A stretch of DNA of 32,238 nt from a virus. Its lineage: Duplodnaviria; Caudoviricetes. The notes under the pieces were generated by a model. It did not search any database. It was given only the letters and a program-made list of their open reading frames with translations, and was not told the DNA's origin. The position numbers were made by a program, and so were the translations under genes. Location of the stretch: positions 1 to 32,238 of IMG/VR virus record IMGVR_UViG_3300005611_000129, one strand, 5' to 3'. Shown piece after piece: positions 1-32,178 of this stretch. The first letter of the stretch is position 1, and the number at the start of each line of letters is the position of its first letter.

Positions 1-41
1 AGATTCGATTTGTCTTGTGTCAATCCAATTTTTTATTCGAC

Positions 42-254
42 TCATTTTTTCCTCCCGAGATACCATACTCGCCAGCCTTCTCTTGTCTTGCGAGTAACGT
101 AATTCATTTTGCGATAGCGCATTGCGTCACGCACCCGATAGGCTTCTTGTTCTGTGCCTACCAATACACTTTGTCCTCGTCTCATTTCATCGAGAAATGA
201 ATACGGACTTTGTTTTCGCATTGGAATTGGAATGTCTGATTCAATTTGCATCAT
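42..254 (-). CDS. small basic hypothetical protein, possible DNA-binding protein (IESDIPIP...YSF...RVW family common in phages)
   Basis: 70-aa ORF with strong SD (AAAGGAGG) just upstream of ATG and its own promoter; motif pattern recalled from small phage proteins. Confidence 0.75.
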   Translation of the reverse strand: MMQIESDIPIPMRKQSPYSFLDEMRRGQSVLVGTEQEAYRVRDAMRYRKMNYVTRKTREGWRVWYLGRKK

Positions 255-269
255 GTCCTCCTTTGTTTC

Positions 270-297
270 ATTCTGGCAAAATAATTTATTTTGTCAA
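270..297 (-). promoter_or_regulatory. sigma70-type promoter for 42..254 with a palindromic operator-like spacer
   Basis: Minus strand TTGACA(297-292)-N16-CAGAAT(275-270) with extended -10 TG; palindrome CAAAATAA-T-TTATTTTG at 277-293. Confidence 0.65.
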
Positions 298-370
298 CGA
301 TTATGTCCATAAAGCTGTTAATTAATTGACTGTGGGTGTGTCCCCCCTTGGGGAAGTTACGCATGTTGGG

Positions 371-397
371 AAAAGCCCCAGCGCGGTGCGCTGGGGC
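371..397 (-). terminator. intrinsic terminator of ORF 406..795
   Basis: Minus strand GCCCCAGCGC-acc-GCGCTGGGGC followed by TTTT, 9 nt after the stop codon. Confidence 0.75.
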
Positions 398-405
398 GGC
401 GTCTG

Positions 406-795
406 TTAGGACGCCTTACGAAGTTTGGCGAAGAACGCCTGGCTGTCAGCTTGTGACTTTGCCTTGGCGTTAACCTCTGGGAAGAGCTGGTCACAGGCTT
501 CCGCGAAGTAATCACGCAACGTCTGCGTGATCTCCTGCTGGGTGTTGTGCCATTCGTAATCACGCTCTAGCTTGGTCCAATCGACTTGTTCTTGTGAACC
601 TTCGAGTGCGTGAGCTTCGACATCTGCTTGAGCGAGAATGTCTGCCTTGGTGAGTTCCTTCCTCTCGATAGTTTTATCGAGATACTGGACGAAACCTGTC
701 AAGAGCCAATTCAGTTGGTTGTATGTGGTCCTATCATCTAGGATGTGATCGCGCTTGATGTCGGATACGAGGTTGTTGGTTACTTTCTTAGACAT
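406..795 (-). CDS. orphan hypothetical protein, 129 aa, probably helical with an acidic middle and basic ends
   Basis: SD AAGGAG-aacaca-ATG; own terminator; no family recognised. Confidence 0.8.
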   Translation of the reverse strand: MSKKVTNNLVSDIKRDHILDDRTTYNQLNWLLTGFVQYLDKTIERKELTKADILAQADVEAHALEGSQEQVDWTKLERDYEWHNTQQEITQTLRDYFAEACDQLFPEVNAKAKSQADSQAFFAKLRKAS

Positions 796-1103
796 TGTGT
801 TCTCCTTACGTTATGATCGGAGGGGAATTCCTCCGACATGCCCCGAATGCCACTGGTTGCTATCAGGCAGGGAAGGGTAGGTGTAGGTCGGCTTGCCAGT
901 TTCCCCTAGCCCGTTGCGCCGGAGGCGCACAATGGTCGGGCTGGCTAGGGAAACTGAGCAAGGGCGGCCCTTCCCTGCATAGCAACTTGTGGCAACGGTT
1001 GGCATGACGAGAGGAAATACCATCCGAACATGGCGTTAGGAGAACCGTCTAAGACAGTGACCTACATCCTCCCGACAGCAAGGGCGATTACAGACTAGGT
1101 GAT
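733..1103 (+). repeat. 371-nt imperfect inverted repeat forming a rod-like hairpin (structured RNA or ssDNA element)
   Basis: Hand pairing gives about 140 bp, e.g. 733-741/1095-1103, 786-793/1047-1054, 799-806/1038-1045, 856-863/979-986, 867-877/968-978, 897-905/948-956; apical stem 915-929. Confidence 0.92.
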
Positions 1104-1132
1104 CTTTTTGTGTAATTGTGCTGTATTGTGAG

Positions 1133-1162
1133 TTGACAAAGGTTTTCTGGTCGTGACATAAA
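1133..1162 (+). promoter_or_regulatory. candidate promoter for terS and the late operon
   Basis: Perfect TTGACA at 1133-1138, then 18 nt, then a weak -10 (CATAAA); about 40 nt upstream of terS. Confidence 0.4.
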
Positions 1163-1201
1163 AGGGGGGGAACACAAGGGGGGGTTCAAGCATGGTTTCG
1201 A

Positions 1202-1573
1202 ATGAGTGATCTAGTAAAGTTAACATCCAAACAGACTGCTCTGGTGGATACGCTTGTAGCTACGGGCTGTACGATTCGTGAAGCCGCTGGCCTTGCTGGT
1301 TATGCAAGTGGGGAAAGCGGAAGAGTGAGTGCTAGCAAGGCTTTGCGGCTTCCTCACGTCCAGCAATATATGATGCAAAGGATTGGAGAGAGTCTCGGAC
1401 TCAATGCTACCGTAGCGGCGGCCAAGCTTCTGACACTAGCGCAGGGTGCTAAGTCCGAGTACGTTCAGCTAGAGGCGAGTAAGGATATACTTGACAGAGC
1501 TGGCTTCAAAGCCCCGGACAAGCATATGCACTTACACGCTGGCGAAATATCAGTTAAGATTGACCTGTCGTAG
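1202..1573 (+). CDS. terS: terminase small subunit
   Basis: LTSKQ...EAAGLAGY HTH pattern and C-terminal VQLEASKDILDRAG typical of TerS; first gene of the morphogenesis strand. Confidence 0.8.
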   Translation: MSDLVKLTSKQTALVDTLVATGCTIREAAGLAGYASGESGRVSASKALRLPHVQQYMMQRIGESLGLNATVAAAKLLTLAQGAKSEYVQLEASKDILDRAGFKAPDKHMHLHAGEISVKIDLS

Positions 1574-1799
1574 GGCAGGGGGGTTGAAAAAGTGTAGTTG
1601 GCTTGCCAGTAGTAGTCCAACCCACACATTAGACCTCGCCAAAGCTCGCAAAATACTGATAGTACCGAACGGTGTGAAATGTTAATCTTTGGCTAATATA
1701 TTGCTAGAAAAGTCCTGATCGGGTAGATTATACAAATATACATTCCCTTAGGTGTTTGCATATTGGTATAAATATTTTTTTTGCTGAGAGGTTCGTCTT

Positions 1800-2045
1800 A
1801 TGTGTTTGTCAATGGGTTCAAGCCCCACACCATCGAAGATCAAACAGCCTGATACTGGGCCAATTAAAACTGCATATGAAATTCCCCCAGAGTTAACTGA
1901 GCAGGAAGCCCTTAAGAAAAAGAAAGGGCCGAAGAGTTTGGTTAAGTTTGGCGGCTCTAAAGGCCCTCAACCTTCTGGCACTTCATTTGGTCTTGGGTCG
2001 TCTTATGGTGGCACTCAAGGCGTTAGTGGTAATCCTAATGCGTAA
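1800..2045 (+). CDS. small Met-Cys-start low-complexity protein, possible virion protein
   Basis: GAGAGG SD; MCLS start; rich in P/K/G/S. Confidence 0.6.
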   Translation: MCLSMGSSPTPSKIKQPDTGPIKTAYEIPPELTEQEALKKKKGPKSLVKFGGSKGPQPSGTSFGLGSSYGGTQGVSGNPNA

Positions 2046-2379
2046 GACTCCGGCATGGCAACGCAAAGAGGGACAAGATCCCAGGGGTGGGCTAAATCCC
2101 AAAGGTCGCGCATCCTATCGCACAGCGAAGGGCAAGAAGGGGAACTTGAAAGCCCCAGTGAAGGGTGCGGCAGACACACCAGAGAAGATTCGCCGCAAGG
2201 GAAGTTTCTTGGTGAGGATGGGTTCTGCGGCAGGACCACTGAAGGATGAGAAGGGGCGTCCTACAAGATTGAAGTTATCACTAGTCGCATGGGGTCACTC
2301 TGGTGACAAGGCCTCTGCGGTTGCCAAGGGTCGGCGTTTGCTGGCAAGATACAAGAAGATGAAAGAAAGGAAAGCCTAA
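2038..2379 (+). CDS. basic hypothetical protein (DUF6321-like)
   Basis: TPAWQRKEGQDPRGGLNPKGRASY...RRKGSFLVRM...LSLVAW; likely start is ATG 2038, not 1948. Confidence 0.75.
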   Translation: MRKTPAWQRKEGQDPRGGLNPKGRASYRTAKGKKGNLKAPVKGAADTPEKIRRKGSFLVRMGSAAGPLKDEKGRPTRLKLSLVAWGHSGDKASAVAKGRRLLARYKKMKERKA

Positions 2380-2531
2380 TGCCAAAAGTAGCAGGAAAGA
2401 CTTTTCCGTATACTGCGGAGGGGATGAAAGCGGCGAAAGCACACGCCAAGAAAACTGGCAAACCAATACAGGGTGCAGTTAAGAAATCGCTTCTGAAGAA
2501 AGATGGAAGTGGAATAAAGGGGGGTTATTAA
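2379..2531 (+). CDS. 50-aa Lys-rich protein MPKVAGKTFPYTAEGMKAAK..., missed by the ORF track
   Basis: Translated by hand; TAATG stop/start coupling at both ends; exactly fills the gap. Confidence 0.8.
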   Translation: MPKVAGKTFPYTAEGMKAAKAHAKKTGKPIQGAVKKSLLKKDGSGIKGGY

Positions 2532-2791
2532 TGGCTTATGCATTTAGAGACGGTACGCCGTATGATGGCCCAGTTATTACCCTGCCAGATGGACGCATTC
2601 TTTCTGGTGAAACTTTCACAGCGAACTCCCAGCGACTAATGGAGGTTGAAGATGGCGGTCAACGAAGCCGGGAATTACACGAAGCCAGCCCTAAGGAAGA
2701 GGTTGTTCAACAAAGTAAAGGCCGAAGCAAAGGGCGGCAAAGCGGGTCAATGGTCAGCAAGAAAGGCGCAAAGGCTAGCCCTTCTGTATAA
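2531..2791 (+). CDS. hypothetical protein
   Basis: TAATG coupling to the previous gene; YDGP...DG..LSG.T.T.NS motif; 3' half overlaps the next gene. Confidence 0.6.
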   Translation: MAYAFRDGTPYDGPVITLPDGRILSGETFTANSQRLMEVEDGGQRSRELHEASPKEEVVQQSKGRSKGRQSGSMVSKKGAKASPSV

Positions 2792-2819
2792 GAAGGCTGG
2801 TGGCGGTTATACAAACTAA
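2652..2819 (+). CDS. 55-aa basic protein, N-terminal half of a DUF5872-like family, missed by the ORF track
   Basis: GGAGGT SD at 2641-2646; MAVNEAGNYTKPALRKRLF...GGKAGQWSARKAQRLALLYKKAGGGYTN; TAATG-coupled to the next gene. Confidence 0.8.
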   Translation: MAVNEAGNYTKPALRKRLFNKVKAEAKGGKAGQWSARKAQRLALLYKKAGGGYTN

Positions 2820-3073
2820 TGGCACTAGCACCTTCACAGAAATCCCTTCGTGCTTGGACAAAGCAGAAGTGGCGCACTAAGTCAGGAAAGCCCAGCACCC
2901 AAGGTAGTGAGGCAACTGGCGAGAGATACTTGCCCGAAAAGGCAATAAAAAATCTTTCGGCTGAAGAGTATCAGAGAACAACCAAGGCCAAGCGTACCGC
3001 CATACGCAAGGGCAAACAGTTTGCTAAGCAACCTGATTCTATAGCAGAGAAAACAAAGAAGTATAGGACATGA
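2819..3073 (+). CDS. basic protein, C-terminal half of a DUF5872-like family
   Basis: QKSLRAWTKQKWRTKSGKPS...ERYLPEKA motif. Confidence 0.75.
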   Translation: MALAPSQKSLRAWTKQKWRTKSGKPSTQGSEATGERYLPEKAIKNLSAEEYQRTTKAKRTAIRKGKQFAKQPDSIAEKTKKYRT

Positions 3074-19635: not shown

Positions 19636-22600
19636 ATGACTATCAACATTGCCGATAACACGCCTCGCGTATCATACTCAGTGGCTGAAGGAGTTACTCA
19701 AACTTCCTTCACAGTTTCTTTTGAGTTCTTCGATGATGAAGATCTTAATGTATATGTAGATGGAACGCTCAAAACGCTTACTACAGATTATACTGTTTCT
19801 GGTGGTAGTGGCACTACTGGCACTGTCACCATATCTGTTACTGGCGGCACTGGTGGTAGCACTGTTGTTATCACACGCGACATAGAACTGGAACGCACTA
19901 CTGACTTCCCTGCTTCTGGCGCATTCCAGATTAATTCTCTTAATACTGAACTTGATCGAATTACTGCTATTGCCGCAGATCTAAATGATCTTGCTGATCG
20001 CGGCCTTCGCCTTAAAGACCAAGATGATGCTGTTTCTACTGAACTGCCATTGAAAGCAGATCGTGTTGGGCGTGTCCTTGGCTTCAATGCAACAACAGGT
20101 GTGCCGGAAGCTGGCCCACTTTTGACTGATGTTTCATCTCTTGCTAGCATTACTGCTGACATAGCCACTCTTGCGGATATTGAAGATGGCACAGATGCTA
20201 CTGATGCTATTCAAACAGTTGCTGGGATATCATCTAATGTCACCACGGTTGCTGGCATTTCTAGCAATGTTACTACTGTGGCTGGTATTAGCGCAGATGT
20301 TACTTCTGTTGCGGCTGATGCAACAGACATTGGGACTGTAGCTACAAACATTGCTTCAGTTAATACTGTGGCTGGGAACATCTCTGAGGTTATTGCTGTT
20401 GCCAATGACCTTAACGAAGCTGTTTCTGAGGTTGAGACTGTAGCCAATGACCTTAATGAGGCTGTGTCAGAGATTGAAACAGTTGCCGCATCCATTACTA
20501 ATGTCGATACAGTTGGAACAAATATATCCAATGTAAATACTGTTGCTGGCAATAGCACTAATATTAATACTGTTGCAGGGATCTCATCCAATGTGACAAC
20601 AGTAGCTGGTATCTCAGGTAATGTGACCACGGTTGCTGGTATCTCAGGCGATGTTACTGCTGTGGCGGCTGATGCCACTGACATCGGCACTGTGTCATCG
20701 AATATTGCTAACGTAAATACGGTTGCTGGCAATACAACGAATATTAACACCGTGGCTGGCATTTCAGCGAATGTCACTACTGTTGCTGGCATTTCCGCTA
20801 ACGTCACTACTGTCGCTGGGATTTCAAGTGACGTTATTGCCGTTGCCGCAGATGCAACAGATATTGGCACTGTCGCTACCAATATCGCAAACGTAAACTC
20901 TGTTGGCGGCTCGATCTCTAACGTCAACACCGTTGCAAGTAATCTTTCATCGGTCAACGACTTTGCTGACAAATATCGTATTGGTGCATCTGATCCGACA
21001 ACTGACAACGATGAAGGTGATTTATTCTACAACACCACAACGGACACGTTGAAGGTCTACACTGGCTCTGCTTGGGAGCAAGGCGTAACGGCTGGCTCTG
21101 GCTTCTTGCCTACAACTGGCGGTTCAATAACAGGCAATATTGATGTCACAGGCACAGTCACGGCTGATGGGTTGGATTTAGGAGCAACCACAGATGCGTC
21201 AACGGTATCAACAATACCGTCAGATTATCAAATACAATTAGGTTCTGCAAATAGCACAACTGGTGACATTGGAAGGAATATATCTTTTGAAACAGGCGGT
21301 GTTGTTACGGCGGCTATTAACAGTTATGACGCAGGCGCATCTTCAAGCACTGGGTTAGCGTTCTTTACTGGAACTGCCTCAACTTTGCGAAGATTTTTAG
21401 ACATAAAAAGCAACGGCGATGTGTCGCTGTATGACAGCAGTGGGGTTTCACAAGGCTTTTTCTGGGACGCCGACCAACAGCGATTGGGGCTGGGCAGTAC
21501 GGGGCCAACGCAAACATTAGATGTCAACGGCAACGCTAGGGTTGATGGCGCAATCTATCTTACTGACCGCATCTATCACGATGGCGACACAAACACATCA
21601 ATTCGCTTCCCTGCCGCAGATACAATCTCGTTAAACACTGCGGGTCAGGAGCGTGTTTACATCACATCGGGCGGCTCGGTCGGCATTGGGACTACAGGGC
21701 CGTCAAACACTTTACACATTAATGATGCCTCAAACTCAACCCCATTGCGTGTTGAGTCTGGGCAAATTGGAAGTTACATCCAGTTTGAAAATTCTACAGC
21801 AAGCGATGGTTACATTGGTTATGTAAATTCTGAACTGCGATTCTGGACAAACAACTCTCAAAAAGCTGTCATCACATCGGGCGGCGATGTCGGCATCGGG
21901 ACGAGTTCGCCGTCTGCAAACCTCCACGCCAAAAACGCCAGCGCAAACTTAGAAATCCGGCTTGACAGTGATAGTGCAAGAAATATTGTGTTTGCTGATA
22001 ATGACGGCACTTACGATGCACAGATTGAAGCACAAGCTAACGGCACACTTTTCATTGCGACACGCCAAGCACAGCCAATGCTGTTCGCTATTAACAACAG
22101 CGAAAAGATGCGGATTGATTCGTCAGGCAATGTCGGCATTGGGACAAGCAGCCCGTCTACATTCCTGCACATCGACAACGGCGGTGCAAGTGGCTCTGGT
22201 CAGGTAGATGCGGTTAGGCTTCACAATCCAGGCACAACGGCGGGTGACGGAGCTGGCATTAAGTTTTCAGCAGGAACAAGCACAACAGGTGCAGGTATCT
22301 TTGGCATAGGCCAAGCCTTAAACAGTTGTAATCTCGTGTTCCGTACTGGTGGTGATACGGAGAGGATGCGCATCGACAGCAGTGGCGTGATGACTGTCAA
22401 CAACTACGATATGACCGACACGACACCGTGGGACAACAGCGGAGCAAACTCTCAGGGCATTTCTTTCGGCGCAATTGGCGGTCTAATTGCTTCTGCTCGT
22501 CCGGGCGGTGACCCAGCCGCTTTCAACAGAACTGTAAATGACGGCACTATCGTGTTTTTCTACCAAGATGGCACTATCGAAGGCAGTATCTCTGTTGCTG

Positions 22601-23942: not shown

Positions 23943-23951
23943 CGTTATGAT
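23922..23951 (+). promoter_or_regulatory. sigma70-type promoter
   Basis: TTGCCA-N18-TATGAT; predicted +1 at about 23958, the base of a hairpin. Confidence 0.55.
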
Positions 23952-23957
23952 GCTATT

Positions 23958-24110
23958 GCAGGATGCCCCGCTATTGGCCATAGGGGTTTCCTGCTTCAGT
24001 TTGACAGACCCGACAGGGTTGATTAGTTGATTTTAGCTTTGGTTAATCCGTGAATAGTCCCGATAGGGCTGAATAAGCGATGTGGGTGGAAGCCCTACAA
24101 GTGCATCGCA
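23958..24110 (+). ncRNA. candidate structured small RNA (about 150 nt)
   Basis: ORF-free gap with consecutive stems (GCAGGA/TCCTGC; two CCC-GAYA-GGG; GCGATG/CATCGC), G-U pairs on the + strand, promoter upstream. Confidence 0.5.
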
Positions 24111-24124
24111 GATTGTTTCTATTG

Positions 24125-24133
24125 TGGTACAAT
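24125..24133 (+). promoter_or_regulatory. extended -10 promoter candidate for the 24182-26233 genes
   Basis: TG-g-TACAAT. Confidence 0.45.
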
Positions 24134-24181
24134 GCCCTATAAACGAGGCGTTAATAACATTGTCGTATTAGTTGTGGGACA

Positions 24182-24409
24182 TTGATTACTGTATTCATAT
24201 TGGTGATGTTTCTAGGGACAGGTGATGAACGGAGAGAGCTTAAAACGCATCTCCGTTTTTATTCTGTTACTGAGTGTAACTTCTACGCTAAGGAACTAGC
24301 GAGGCGGTTTGGGAACTACCAAGACTATGACTGGCTAGACAGGCGTGATAGAGTGACCTTGTATTGTGTGCCTGAGGAGGTAGACCCTGAGACTGTAAGA
24401 GTATACTGA
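24182..24409 (+). CDS. small hypothetical protein with hydrophobic N-terminus and a Cys pair
   Basis: TTG start; F.S..EC...A...YCVP pattern; TGATG-coupled to the next gene. Confidence 0.65.
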   Translation: MITVFILVMFLGTGDERRELKTHLRFYSVTECNFYAKELARRFGNYQDYDWLDRRDRVTLYCVPEEVDPETVRVY

Positions 24410-26233: not shown

Positions 26234-26468
26234 CTGCGCTGTATCCTGCCAGATCTACCCAAGAGTCTTCATGCGTTGGTGATTCCATCAGGCGTGAGAT
26301 CTTTACCAGCATCATCATCAGCCCTACATCGGCAACTGTATATTTGTTTCCAGTGTAGGCCTCCCATAGGGTTGCTATTCTTTCGAAGTTCTCTGATGGC
26401 TTGCCATAGTCTTCGCCTCGATCCTTGGTGGCTTTGAGTGCGTCATTGAGTATTGTTGTTCTGTTCAT
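26139..26468 (-). CDS. DUF6378-like protein (dNTP diphosphohydrolase-related)
   Basis: DRGEDYG...NFERIATLW...MMMLVKISR...HEDSWVDLAGY. Confidence 0.85.
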   Translation of the reverse strand: MNRTTILNDALKATKDRGEDYGKPSENFERIATLWEAYTGNKYTVADVGLMMMLVKISRLMESPTHEDSWVDLAGYSAVTAEAIAYTSDIPLPPPAQQSTAPMRQVSRY

Positions 26469-26489
26469 AGCTTTACTCTTGGGATGCTT

Positions 26490-26552
26490 GCGGCCCAGCG
26501 TAGGGGAGGAAACCGCTGGGCCGCGCCGTGCAAGGGGGAGAACAGCCCTTGC
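26490..26552. other. twin GC-rich hairpins with SD/anti-SD-like loops
   Basis: GCGGCCCAGCG/CGCTGGGCCGC (26490-26524) and GCAAGGG/CCCTTGC (26530-26552). Confidence 0.8.
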
Positions 26553-26555
26553 CGC

Positions 26556-31278: not shown

Positions 31279-31330
31279 AACGGCAAGGACCGCCGCCCTC
31301 ACCTGACCGGGGGGCGGCGGCATTGCCGTT
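31279..31330. other. GC-rich intergenic hairpin with internal loop (processing site or terminator)
   Basis: AACGGCAA/TTGCCGTT plus CCGCCGCCCTC/GGGGGCGGCGG. Confidence 0.7.
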
Positions 31331-32178
31331 TATTGGTGTGTCCAGATTGGATCTTTGAACAGCTTTACTAGCTGGTTTTCTCTCTGGCGGCGAGTGTTTG
31401 CTGGGGAACTTGATTCATTAGTGTGAGTTGCCCAAGCTGTGAGGCCATTGTACAAGGCCCACTTATTATGCCCTAGATTATGTACTTCCTTTATATAGGA
31501 GCTTGTTATTAGATCCATTTGCTTTTCATTGTACCTAGATCTTTTGCTTGGTCTTGGCAAGCGAGACAATTCCTTTGCAATGGTTTGAGCATAATCCCAA
31601 GTTACTTCTGTACTCATGTAATCAATGTAGAGATCACGATTGAGAAGGAAGACTTCCAATCCTTGAGTGATCTTATGCGATGATGATTCTACATTGACAT
31701 TGGAAGTATGCTTGGCCCAAGTTCTTGCCACACTGTCTGCTGTGGTGCATCCATTAAGACACCATAAACGTAAACCATCGGTTGACTGTTGGAATGCCCA
31801 AGATCCGTCATAGCTATTGAAGAATTGAATACGAAACTTAATATAATCTCCCACTGCTGGCTCAATGATGTGATCGTGGAATAGAATTTCTCCACGCATT
31901 TTGCGTCCGTCTTCAAAGACATCAACAGTCATCTCAAAATCTTGACTGATGTTTGATTTCTTCACTGCGTCATGCACTGAGTTAACGCAGTCATCATGTC
32001 TAATGATTTTGTATTTTGATCCGTGAACACCAAGCACTTTGTTGGTATCGGTGCGCACTACTGCTCTTGCCATATTCTTTGGCACTTCAATATCTGGAAC
32101 GCCTTCTAATTCTGATGTTGCCCAGAGATTGTAGGTATCAACTGGGAAATCCCAATTGTAATTTGTCATACCATCCAT
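31330..32178 (-). CDS. DUF932 family protein
   Basis: VVRTDT..VLG..GSKY, NSYDGS, RLWCLNG, KHT, WALYNGLT...H; ATG 32178 with AAGGAGAAC SD. Confidence 0.85.
   Translation of the reverse strand: MDGMTNYNWDFPVDTYNLWATSELEGVPDIEVPKNMARAVVRTDTNKVLGVHGSKYKIIRHDDCVNSVHDAVKKSNISQDFEMTVDVFEDGRKMRGEILFHDHIIEPAVGDYIKFRIQFFNSYDGSWAFQQSTDGLRLWCLNGCTTADSVARTWAKHTSNVNVESSSHKITQGLEVFLLNRDLYIDYMSTEVTWDYAQTIAKELSRLPRPSKRSRYNEKQMDLITSSYIKEVHNLGHNKWALYNGLTAWATHTNESSSPANTRRQRENQLVKLFKDPIWTHQ

What the first reader, a model, noticed from the sequence alone, without database searches (positions are those of the whole stretch)
733..1103. 371-nt rod-like fold-back element that swallows the start of an orphan gene at the early/late divergence point
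Seen in sequence: 733-913 pairs colinearly with 937-1103, about 140 bp by hand. Helices are at most about 11 bp and are broken by regular mismatches and bulges. The left arm is the SD, start codon and first 21 codons of ORF 406..795; the right arm is non-coding. Six internal G.T pairs occur on the + strand (737/1099, 747/1089, 781/1059, 811/1033, 812/1032, 855/987), with a tandem GA/AG (742-743/1093-1094) and no internal A.C appositions. The rod ends right before TTTTT (1105-1109). Inference: this bias points to selection for single-strand folding of the + strand rather than decay of a duplication. The + strand is the template/antisense strand of the orphan gene, which has its own terminator but no clear dsDNA promoter. 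Models: (a) an ssDNA or cruciform promoter or priming signal, like Frpo/ssi of plasmid leading regions; a -10-like TACCAT (1018-1023) sits in the most mismatched segment and would place +1 about 20 nt before the ATG, although the nearest TTGGCA is only 13 nt away; (b) a long structured antisense or regulatory RNA, or a fold-back leader that silences a toxic gene as in type I toxin mRNAs; (c) a packaging or terminus-processing structure next to terS. I know of no described element like this in such phages.
Basis: partly seen in the sequence, partly recalled or inferred. Interest (0 to 1): 0.9.

Follow-up and report, generated by a model that had tools for sequence, protein, structure and literature searches.

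The report
Single-stranded DNA promoter rod in phage
In a widespread group of marine tailed phages, one DNA strand carries a degenerate mirror copy of the start, or the whole, of a neighbouring gene and is predicted to fold back into a long DNA rod that likely lets host RNA polymerase read that gene only while the strand is single, as in conjugative plasmids.

Summary
The rod is real (z about -15; strongest inverted repeat in the genome; spanned by contigs from two studies). It is conserved upstream of terS: 42 of 52 related loci with enough flank have it, 41 beside a member of one coiled-coil gene family, so the gene is no orphan. The right arm tracks its own phage's gene. It usually covers the RBS and about 21 codons, in six phages the whole gene with terminator, and in Pelagibacter phage Hodr it runs into terS. 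The + strand appears to fold as DNA, not RNA: DNA-specific C[GNA]G mini-hairpins (14 of 45 apexes, 1 on the other strand), mismatch choice fitting DNA energies far better than RNA, no conserved + strand promoter or terminator. Geometry, a wobble-made TRTG motif and the neighbours (DUF932 or ArdC) match plasmid Frpo-type single-strand promoters and leading regions. Best reading: a single-strand promoter and primer site, with the copy arm as surrogate non-template strand (0.6). Not shown: transcription, the source of ssDNA, genome ends, protein function. Canonical -35/-10 boxes were not found, but the test also misses F Frpo.

The parts
733..1103 (+). Fold-back rod, predicted to form on the + strand as single-stranded DNA
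   Evidence: conserved upstream of terS
733..877 (+). Left arm: template strand of the 5' leader, RBS, ATG and first 21 codons of ORF 406-795
968..1103 (+). Right arm: degenerate sense-like copy of leader, RBS and gene start; start codon lost here; inferred surrogate non-template strand
   Evidence: the copy matches its own gene best in 17 of 17 short and 6 of 6 long rods
908..942 (+). Apex module: stem, 1-nt/7-nt asymmetric loop, 6-bp stem capped by C[GGA]G DNA mini-hairpin (loop 921-923)
   Evidence: module in 18 of 45 apexes on +, 2 of 45 on -
975..1005 (+). Inferred promoter segment of the copy arm, with TTGTGG at 987-992 (T987 held by a G.T wobble) followed by a mismatch and a bulge; no canonical -10 in this phage
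   Evidence: scorer result
816..837 (-). Leader hairpin upstream of the RBS, likely the 5' stem-loop of the mRNA; its counterpart in the copy arm is weaker in 37 of 37
801..808 (-). Shine-Dalgarno sequence of ORF 406-795
   Evidence: sequence
406..795 (-). 129-aa coiled-coil hairpin protein of a clade-wide family of unknown function; no consensus dsDNA promoter upstream
   Evidence: no family or specific fold match
371..397 (-). Intrinsic-terminator-like hairpin after the gene
   Evidence: sequence; not called by the scanner
1133..1162 (+). terS promoter-like site TTGACA-18-CATAAA, conserved
   Evidence: (41 representatives)
1164..1184 (+). G7-AACACAA-G7 motif; the only four-G-tract motif in the genome; role unknown
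   Evidence: double G-run within 150 nt of terS in 72 of 73 loci
1202..1573 (+). Terminase small subunit
270..297 (-). Ordinary dsDNA promoter-like site (TTGACA-16-CAGAAT) of the leftward operon, downstream of the rod gene
31330..32178 (-). DUF932 gene; same Pfam family as the F leading-region gene downstream of Frpo1; this slot holds ArdC in other relatives

Best explanation
The + strand of 733-1103 is predicted to fold back as single-stranded DNA into a rod whose right arm, a degenerate copy of the gene's leader and start, would stand in for the missing non-template strand, so that host RNA polymerase likely transcribes the coiled-coil gene (and could lay a primer) only while this strand is single. 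SHOWN: the rod, its conservation, its coupling to one gene family, lineage-specific tracking of the gene by the copy, the + strand bias, DNA-type loops and mismatches, the lack of a consensus dsDNA promoter for this gene, and DUF932 or ArdC next door. INFERRED: (1) RNA polymerase starts in the mismatched segment about 45-60 nt upstream of the ATG. (2) The duplex continues over the RBS and about 21 codons, or the whole gene and terminator, so that re-pairing behind the polymerase frees the mRNA from an RNA:DNA hybrid for ribosome loading. (3) Frequent mismatches keep the repeat from recombining or extruding in dsDNA. (4) The + strand becomes single either as a 3' tail by resection of the genome end that enters first (my preferred source, about 0.45 within this model), as a displaced strand in replication (about 0.35), or as a single-stranded end in the virion (about 0.2).
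For: DNA not RNA: C[GNA]G hairpins with stem of 4 bp or more, 14 in 5,416 nt of + strand apex against 1 on the - strand and 6 in 118,553 nt downstream; RNA-type GNRA/UNCG loops favour the mRNA strand upstream (43 vs 11). Such mini-hairpins are much less stable as RNA (stated for the GAAA form) and occur in G4, ssiA and N4 ssDNA signals (PMC13037366 passages). 478 isolated mismatches: negative log-likelihood 454.3 with DNA energies, 499.8 with RNA, 525.1 null; DNA better in 30 of 30 bootstraps; the opposite strand gives a negative slope. Polarity as in F Frpo1/2: gene 5', copy arm 3' on the template strand, same GCCGTGG/GTTGTGG tandem wobble. TRTG in the copy arm in 25 of 42, in the gene's own upstream in 5 of 42; 8 tandem wobbles at 52-65 nt upstream of the ATG; Frpo1/2 also have TRTG in the copy only. 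Own-strand promoter score 6.35 against 8.29 for terS. Rod ends 47-86 nt into the ORF in 30 of 43, past the terminator in 6. DUF932 in 21 and ArdC in 8 of 40 loci examined. Four-fold sites are T-rich on + in both gene directions.
Against: No transcript or activity data. A -35/-10 scorer finds no gain in the copy arm (6.51 vs 6.35, 23 vs 20, p 0.43; this phage 5.9 vs 6.2), though F Frpo1/2 score only 6.2-6.3 on it. The TRTG motif was chosen after viewing the alignments and is partly a by-product of the wobble bias. No strand bias in Hodr (G.T 8, A.C 6; -178 vs -180 kcal/mol), L098 (11:13) or L099 (13:16). No known step gives a tailed dsDNA phage a long-lived single strand, and the genome has lambda O/P-like replication genes (the P-like call is my inference), so a primer site may not be needed. 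Representatives are relatives clustered at 85%, so p-values overstate independence. This phage alone has only 12 isolated mismatches.
Confidence: 0.6

Rival explanations
1. A single-stranded DNA structure with no promoter role: it caps or self-primes a 3' genome end, or is a signal for packaging or terminal-repeat processing next to terS.
For: All DNA-fold evidence fits. It lies beside terS and a conserved double G-run. Contig ends are more frequent upstream of terS than downstream (28 vs 9 of 80 within 1.5 kb).
Against: A cap or primer needs no RBS. The arm is anchored on leader, RBS and start of one gene family in 41 of 42 loci and ends just past the terminator in six long rods. In Hodr and L062/L063 it runs 147-229 nt into terS, so an end between rod and terS is not general. 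Contig breaks may come from the repeat itself.
Confidence: 0.17
2. A single-strand replication origin first: primer synthesis or nicking at the apex module, with the gene only a passenger.
For: The apex has a GNA hairpin followed by a G[T/C]GCGG-type motif, reminiscent of the RSF1010 nic layout (PMC4814116 passages) and of ssiA. Strand skew. Frpo transcripts also prime.
Against: No HUH nuclease or primase was recognised among the window's proteins (about 1 kb may be missing). The motif is partly just the 3' strand of a stem. Covering a whole gene with its terminator is not needed for priming.
Confidence: 0.11
3. A long antisense or fold-back RNA from the + strand, or a silencing mRNA leader as in type I toxin-antitoxin systems.
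For: The + strand RNA fold is very stable. This phage has a + strand TAGACA-17-TATGAT at 789-817 and a T-tract after the rod.
Against: Loops and mismatches are DNA-type. T-tract in 3 of 45; strong + promoter before the rod in 4 of 44 (background 11 of 205); the 789-817 site scores 8 or more in 1 of 43. The mRNA strand folds worse and carries the A.C appositions. No Rfam match.
Confidence: 0.07
4. A supercoil-driven cruciform in dsDNA between divergent promoters, N4-like.
For: For this 371-nt rod the cost (297 kcal/mol) is near the gain (248-340). Hodr, L098 and L099 lack strand bias. N4 promoters use the same mini-hairpins.
Against: A cruciform folds both strands, so G.T over A.C would not be selected, yet favourable exceed unfavourable mismatches in 42 of 45. 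Long rods cost about 1,010-1,020 against 610-900. No virion RNA polymerase was recognised.
Confidence: 0.05

Closest known systems
Frpo1/Frpo2 and ssp2 of plasmid F, ssi1-3 of ColIb-P9 (single-stranded DNA promoters of conjugative leading regions; PMC9849209, PMC11541004, PMC12672017, bioRxiv 10.64898/2026.01.09.698686)
   Same: 240-370-nt imperfect stem on the template strand with the gene 5' of it; tandem-wobble GTTGTGG and copy-only TRTG (Frpo1/2); TTATC/A internal loop like many phage rods (ssp2, by eye); DUF932 downstream; weak consensus boxes.
   Different: Tailed dsDNA phage with no relaxase or transfer system recognised. No sequence homology (best BLAST hits 21 and 14 nt, outside Frpo). 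F stems stop 37-47 nt before the ATG; these cover RBS and codons, a whole gene, or reach into terS. One rod per genome scanned, tied to one gene family.
Single-strand origins of rolling-circle plasmids and filamentous phages (ssoA/ssoU, M13 minus-strand origin; recalled)
   Same: Imperfect fold-back read by host RNA polymerase on one strand only.
   Different: No HUH Rep found; lambda-type initiator-like gene instead; the rod contains a gene start.
Phage N4 virion-RNAP hairpin promoters (PMC13037366 passages)
   Same: C[GGA]G and C[GAA]G mini-hairpins on the template strand of a dsDNA phage.
   Different: N4 uses a 5-bp stem and its own 3,500-aa polymerase; none is recognised here, and the stem is 110-480 bp.
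MOBQ oriT/nic of RSF1010 (PMC4814116, PMC3832669 passages)
   Same: GAA-loop inverted repeat followed a few nt later by a TAAG[T/C]GCG-like stretch in some apexes.
   Different: Consensus not matched exactly, many apexes differ, no relaxase.
Rod-like RNAs (viroids, HDV, Obelisks, 6S RNA) and type I toxin mRNA leaders (recalled)
   Same: Long imperfect rod with an ORF on one side.
   Different: DNA-type loops and mismatches, no conserved transcription unit, no Rfam hit.

Membership tests
Frpo/ssi ssDNA promoters | Long imperfect stem-loop on the template strand, gene on its 5' side | tested here: met
   F control
Frpo/ssi ssDNA promoters | Folds on one strand, as DNA | tested here: met
   not seen in Hodr, L098, L099
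Frpo/ssi ssDNA promoters | -35 and -10 boxes reconstituted in the fold | tested here: inconclusive
   No gain in the copy arm, but F Frpo1/2 score equally low; TRTG copy-only 22 vs sense-only 2
Frpo/ssi ssDNA promoters | Sequence homology to Frpo1/2 or ssp2 of F | tested here: not met
   61 rods against the F leading region; ColIb-P9 and pESBL elements not compared
Frpo/ssi ssDNA promoters | [quoted passage not shown] | tested here: not met
   Podophage genome with no relaxase or T4SS hit; neighbours are leading-region-like
Frpo/ssi ssDNA promoters | Transcribed from ssDNA, silent in dsDNA | not testable with these tools
   needs in vitro transcription and 5' end mapping
Rolling-circle single-strand origin | HUH Rep gene and double-strand origin | tested here: inconclusive
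   No HUH hit; the window may lack about 1 kb; DUF932 model unusable (pLDDT 33)
N4-type hairpin promoter | Virion-packaged RNA polymerase | tested here: not met
   Largest ORFs (1598 and 1176 aa) hit internal virion and tail fibre families
N4-type hairpin promoter | C[GNA]G mini-hairpin on the template strand | tested here: met
Structured ncRNA or type I TA leader | Rfam family match | tested here: not met
   window 1-3000, 5 weak hits far below gathering; 0 hits in 20 loci
Structured ncRNA or type I TA leader | Conserved promoter and terminator bounding the fold | tested here: not met
MOBQ nic site | Inverted repeat plus the MOBQ consensus and a cognate relaxase | tested here: inconclusive
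   Partial likeness only; no relaxase recognised
Packaging or terminus signal | Coincides with virion DNA ends | not testable with these tools
   Only contigs were available

The most novel reading that the evidence does not exclude
These abundant marine podophages have a plasmid-style leading region. The end that enters first is made single-stranded, folds a whole gene or its start into a self-made duplex, and expresses an establishment protein as a direct read-out of end resection, next to ArdC or DUF932. This would be a host-polymerase ssDNA promoter in a tailed dsDNA phage, testable in the cultured phage Hodr.
Probability: 0.3. Interest if true: 0.93.

Novelty: new variant of a known kind. 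Interest (0 to 1): 0.82.

Why it matters
Host-polymerase ssDNA promoters are described from conjugative plasmids and ssDNA replicons; tailed phages are thought to stay double-stranded. A clade with about 1,500 stretches in IMG/VR (estimate) keeps a non-coding mirror copy of up to about 600 nt in step with a gene, and in Hodr constrains two coding sequences at once. That points to an unrecognised single-stranded stage and to a gene whose expression reports DNA state. The loop and mismatch tests also give a general way to tell DNA folds from RNA folds by sequence alone.

Tried and rejected
Rfam: nothing near gathering score. RNA evidence: no RNA holder listed, which is no evidence either way; only contigs could be laid, so ends were not mapped. 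My first fold-back scoring was too permissive and was replaced (then 20). A first anchor on the leader hairpin was noisy and was redone. The bipartite promoter scorer is uninformative. Protein function: no Pfam, PHROG or PDB family; Foldseek, VIA and Atlas give only generic helical hairpins; DksA2 at E 1.5 and a Rha hit at E 0.005 were not accepted; mean net charge -2 gives no support for a DNA mimic. DUF932 fold failed. HTVC010P: a repeat at 34563-31 over the gp64 start beat 100 shuffles narrowly (57.5 vs max 54) but its fold z was only -1.8 and -2.6 and gp64 is not in the family, so it is not counted. MEP301 and Vibrio phage 1.138.O have no rod (top scores 34 and 31.5), and the part of DvV-SI2 scanned has nothing convincing (39). 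Neutral decay of a duplication was rejected: it predicts G.T equal to A.C and cannot give lineage-specific tracking. Rows dropped: loci with under 400 nt upstream, L002/L005/L006 (rod scores and extents matching L001 or L019), and 2-3 representatives without an assignable gene or paired anchor in promoter tests. RSF1010 was not in the plasmid collection. Searches that showed no description of such an element in tailed phages: (only the listed top hits were seen; 91 and 122 matched 553 and 793 papers; the library lacks most subscription papers).

Full report
Context. The window is the whole held assembly, 32,238 nt: a podophage with terS, terL, head-tail adaptor and T7-like tail genes to the right, and a leftward operon with DUF932, an HTH protein, initiator- and RusA-like genes, a YqaJ exonuclease and an SSB-like gene. 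The closest cultured relative is Pelagibacter phage Hodr (terS 64%, terL 63%). The host of this phage is unknown.

Observation. The rod is as described. It is the strongest inverted repeat of 46 genome windows, 111.5 against 43.5, and single contigs from two studies span it. Of 15 strain differences at stem or mismatch positions, 6 restore Watson-Crick pairs, 2 make G.T, 1 swaps a mismatch and 6 open a pair (two of these are one pair beside a 1-nt deletion, one is terminal).

Conservation. I took the best 80 of 589 confirmed terS loci, 6 loci of the gene and Hodr. With strand-neutral scoring, 61 of 74 regions scored 40 or more, forming 45 clusters at 85%. The threshold is not clean: background was 32 or less in 15 windows but 43.5 once. 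Of 52 loci with 1.5 kb or more upstream, 42 have a rod, 43 a family gene and 41 both; 8 have neither, and the ones I folded show shorter rods or hairpin arrays there. All 5 MAG-derived loci have rods. The left arm nearly always holds leader, RBS and start of one protein family (83 and 107 homologues), predicted to be a coiled-coil hairpin (pLDDT 89) of no known family. The rod ends 47-86 nt into the ORF in 30 of 43 representatives, 135-222 nt in 5, before the ATG in 2, and 32-64 nt past the stop, taking in the terminator, in 6. In Hodr and L062/L063 the right arm continues through the terS promoter into 147-229 nt of terS (Hodr terS against its gene 63.0, maximum of 200 shuffles 35.5). Each copy matches its own phage's gene: long rods score 290-412 against their own gene and at most 49 against another's, although two of those genes score 242 against each other; 17 of 17 short rods match their own best. 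The copy is therefore maintained or remade in each lineage.

Which strand, which polymer. Appositions favour the + strand: G.T:A.C 497:88, G.G:C.C 135:21, A.G:C.T 473:112; 42 of 45 representatives agree. Opposite a left-arm G, isolated mismatches are T 61, A 44, G 41; opposite A they are G 62, A 23, C 8. A conditional-logit fit of 478 isolated mismatches gives 454.3 with DNA energies, 499.8 with RNA and 525.1 for the null; DNA wins 30 of 30 bootstraps, in long and short rods separately, and the slope is negative for the other strand. Apexes carry C[GNA]G mini-hairpins on + (14 of 45; 2.58 per kb), hardly on - (1) or downstream (0.05 per kb), while GNRA/UNCG loops favour the mRNA strand. Unsupervised motif search also returned a GCGAAGC-like motif. 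PMC13037366 (passages) describes these as DNA-stable motifs found in G4, ssiA and N4 signals. No conserved + strand promoter or T-tract bounds the rod. Cruciform energetics are borderline here and prohibitive for the two 1.2-kb rods computed. Exceptions: Hodr, L098 and L099 are bulge-rich with no strand bias.

Promoter. The terS promoter is TTGACA-17/18-[C/G/T]A(T)AA in 41 representatives. The rod gene has nothing comparable on its own strand (6.35 vs 8.29), but the copy arm scores no better (6.51). F Frpo1/2, fetched as a control, score 6.2-6.3, so this test is blind. In favour: the polarity equals Frpo's; Frpo1/2 and several rods share a GCCGTG/GTTGTG tandem wobble followed by a mismatch and a bulge; TRTG is copy-only in 22 and sense-only in 2 of 42 (motif chosen post hoc); T and A are enriched 10-11 nt before the leader hairpin in the copy (20 and 17 of 37, against 9 and 4). 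In this phage that segment is about 975-1005 and is a poor match; TACCAT at 1018-1023 is not at the conserved position.

Neighbourhood. Downstream of the rod gene sits DUF932 in 21 or ArdC in 8 of 40 loci examined, never both in that listing; Hodr has ArdC. In F, Frpo1 lies upstream of ygeA and ygeB (PMC9849209 passages), and the second gene there is annotated DUF932. ArdC is an ssDNA-binding anti-restriction protein (PMC7213743, title and abstract start). The rod gene itself has its own terminator-like hairpin, so these neighbours are probably read from an ordinary promoter. At four-fold sites the + strand is T-rich in both gene directions and relatively G-rich, as expected if it is the strand more often single; codon usage could contribute.

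Mechanism. See Best explanation. The step I cannot support directly is how the + strand becomes single. If packaging starts near terS and runs rightwards with terminal redundancy (by analogy with P22, recalled), the rod lies near the end that enters first and whose 3' strand is +; resection would expose it. A replication intermediate is the alternative. PMC10504331 (passages) and PMC8024684 (passages) do not settle termini for relatives; no paper on Hodr was found.

Comparison and novelty. It works like an Frpo-type promoter but is not a member: no homology, no conjugative context, and it includes RBS and coding sequence. Papers seen: PMC11541004 (passages, Supplementary file 7; file 5 unreadable), PMC12672017 (passages, section 17; Fig. 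S3 with the mapped starts not seen, and it bears on where -10 lies), bioRxiv 10.64898/2026.01.09.698686 (passages; supplements closed), PMC4814116 and PMC3832669 (passages). Searches listed no report of such an element in tailed phages. Unchecked notes from this scan describe Frpo-like hairpins in other phages, a plasmid family whose stems include RBS and about 18 codons, and a hairpin-rich region in a relative of this phage; these are leads only, and they suggest that swallowing a start is not unique. Whole-gene and terS-overlapping rods were not among the notes shown.

Verdict. A real, conserved, very likely single-stranded DNA element (about 0.85); ssDNA promoter role 0.6; new variant of a known kind; interest 0.82.

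Noticed in passing
window 1164-1184: G7-N7-G7 right after the terS -10; can be read as four GGG tracts (G-quadruplex-type), the only such motif in the genome; a double G-run lies within 150 nt of terS in 72 of 73 loci. Candidate pac, R-loop or ssDNA signal.
   Followed up: partly
window 1123-1138 and relatives: TGTG(C/A)G directly upstream of the terS TTGACA in most of 41 representatives; the -10 lacks the -7 T. A consensus -35 is odd for a late operon.
   Followed up: no
L092 390-1197 (Hodr); L062/L063: The rod pairs two coding sequences: the terS 5' end and the rod gene resemble each other as DNA while encoding unrelated proteins.
   Followed up: partly
L025, L027, L029, L034, L047, L079, about 300-900 nt upstream of terS: Loci without the family gene; those folded (L025, L034, L047, L079) have dense branched hairpin arrays at this position, some with apex-like motifs.
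   Followed up: partly
L040, L067, L070, L073, about 450-900 nt upstream of terS: A shorter AT-rich rod type in front of a different gene.
   Followed up: partly
L030, L031, L032: Same terS upstream sequence but different rod lengths and gene subfamilies, which suggests the rod and gene move as a cassette.
   Followed up: no
window 1 and 32238: The ends do not overlap; relatives are about 33.5 kb, so roughly 1 kb between ORF 42-254 and DUF932 may be missing.
   Followed up: no
window 1654-1775: Contigs of three runs replace these 122 nt with 14 other letters: a variable insert after terS.
   Followed up: no
window 23943-24408: Largely ORF-poor stretch in the late region.
   Followed up: no
window 26453-26555: Two strong hairpins between the converging operons, probably a bidirectional terminator.
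   Followed up: no
window 19960-20950: 30-nt (10-aa) repeats in the tail fibre gene.
   Followed up: no
L091 34563-34892 plus 1-31 (HTVC010P): Marginal inverted repeat over the RBS and start of gp64 at the equivalent divergence; fold energy not significant.
   Followed up: yes
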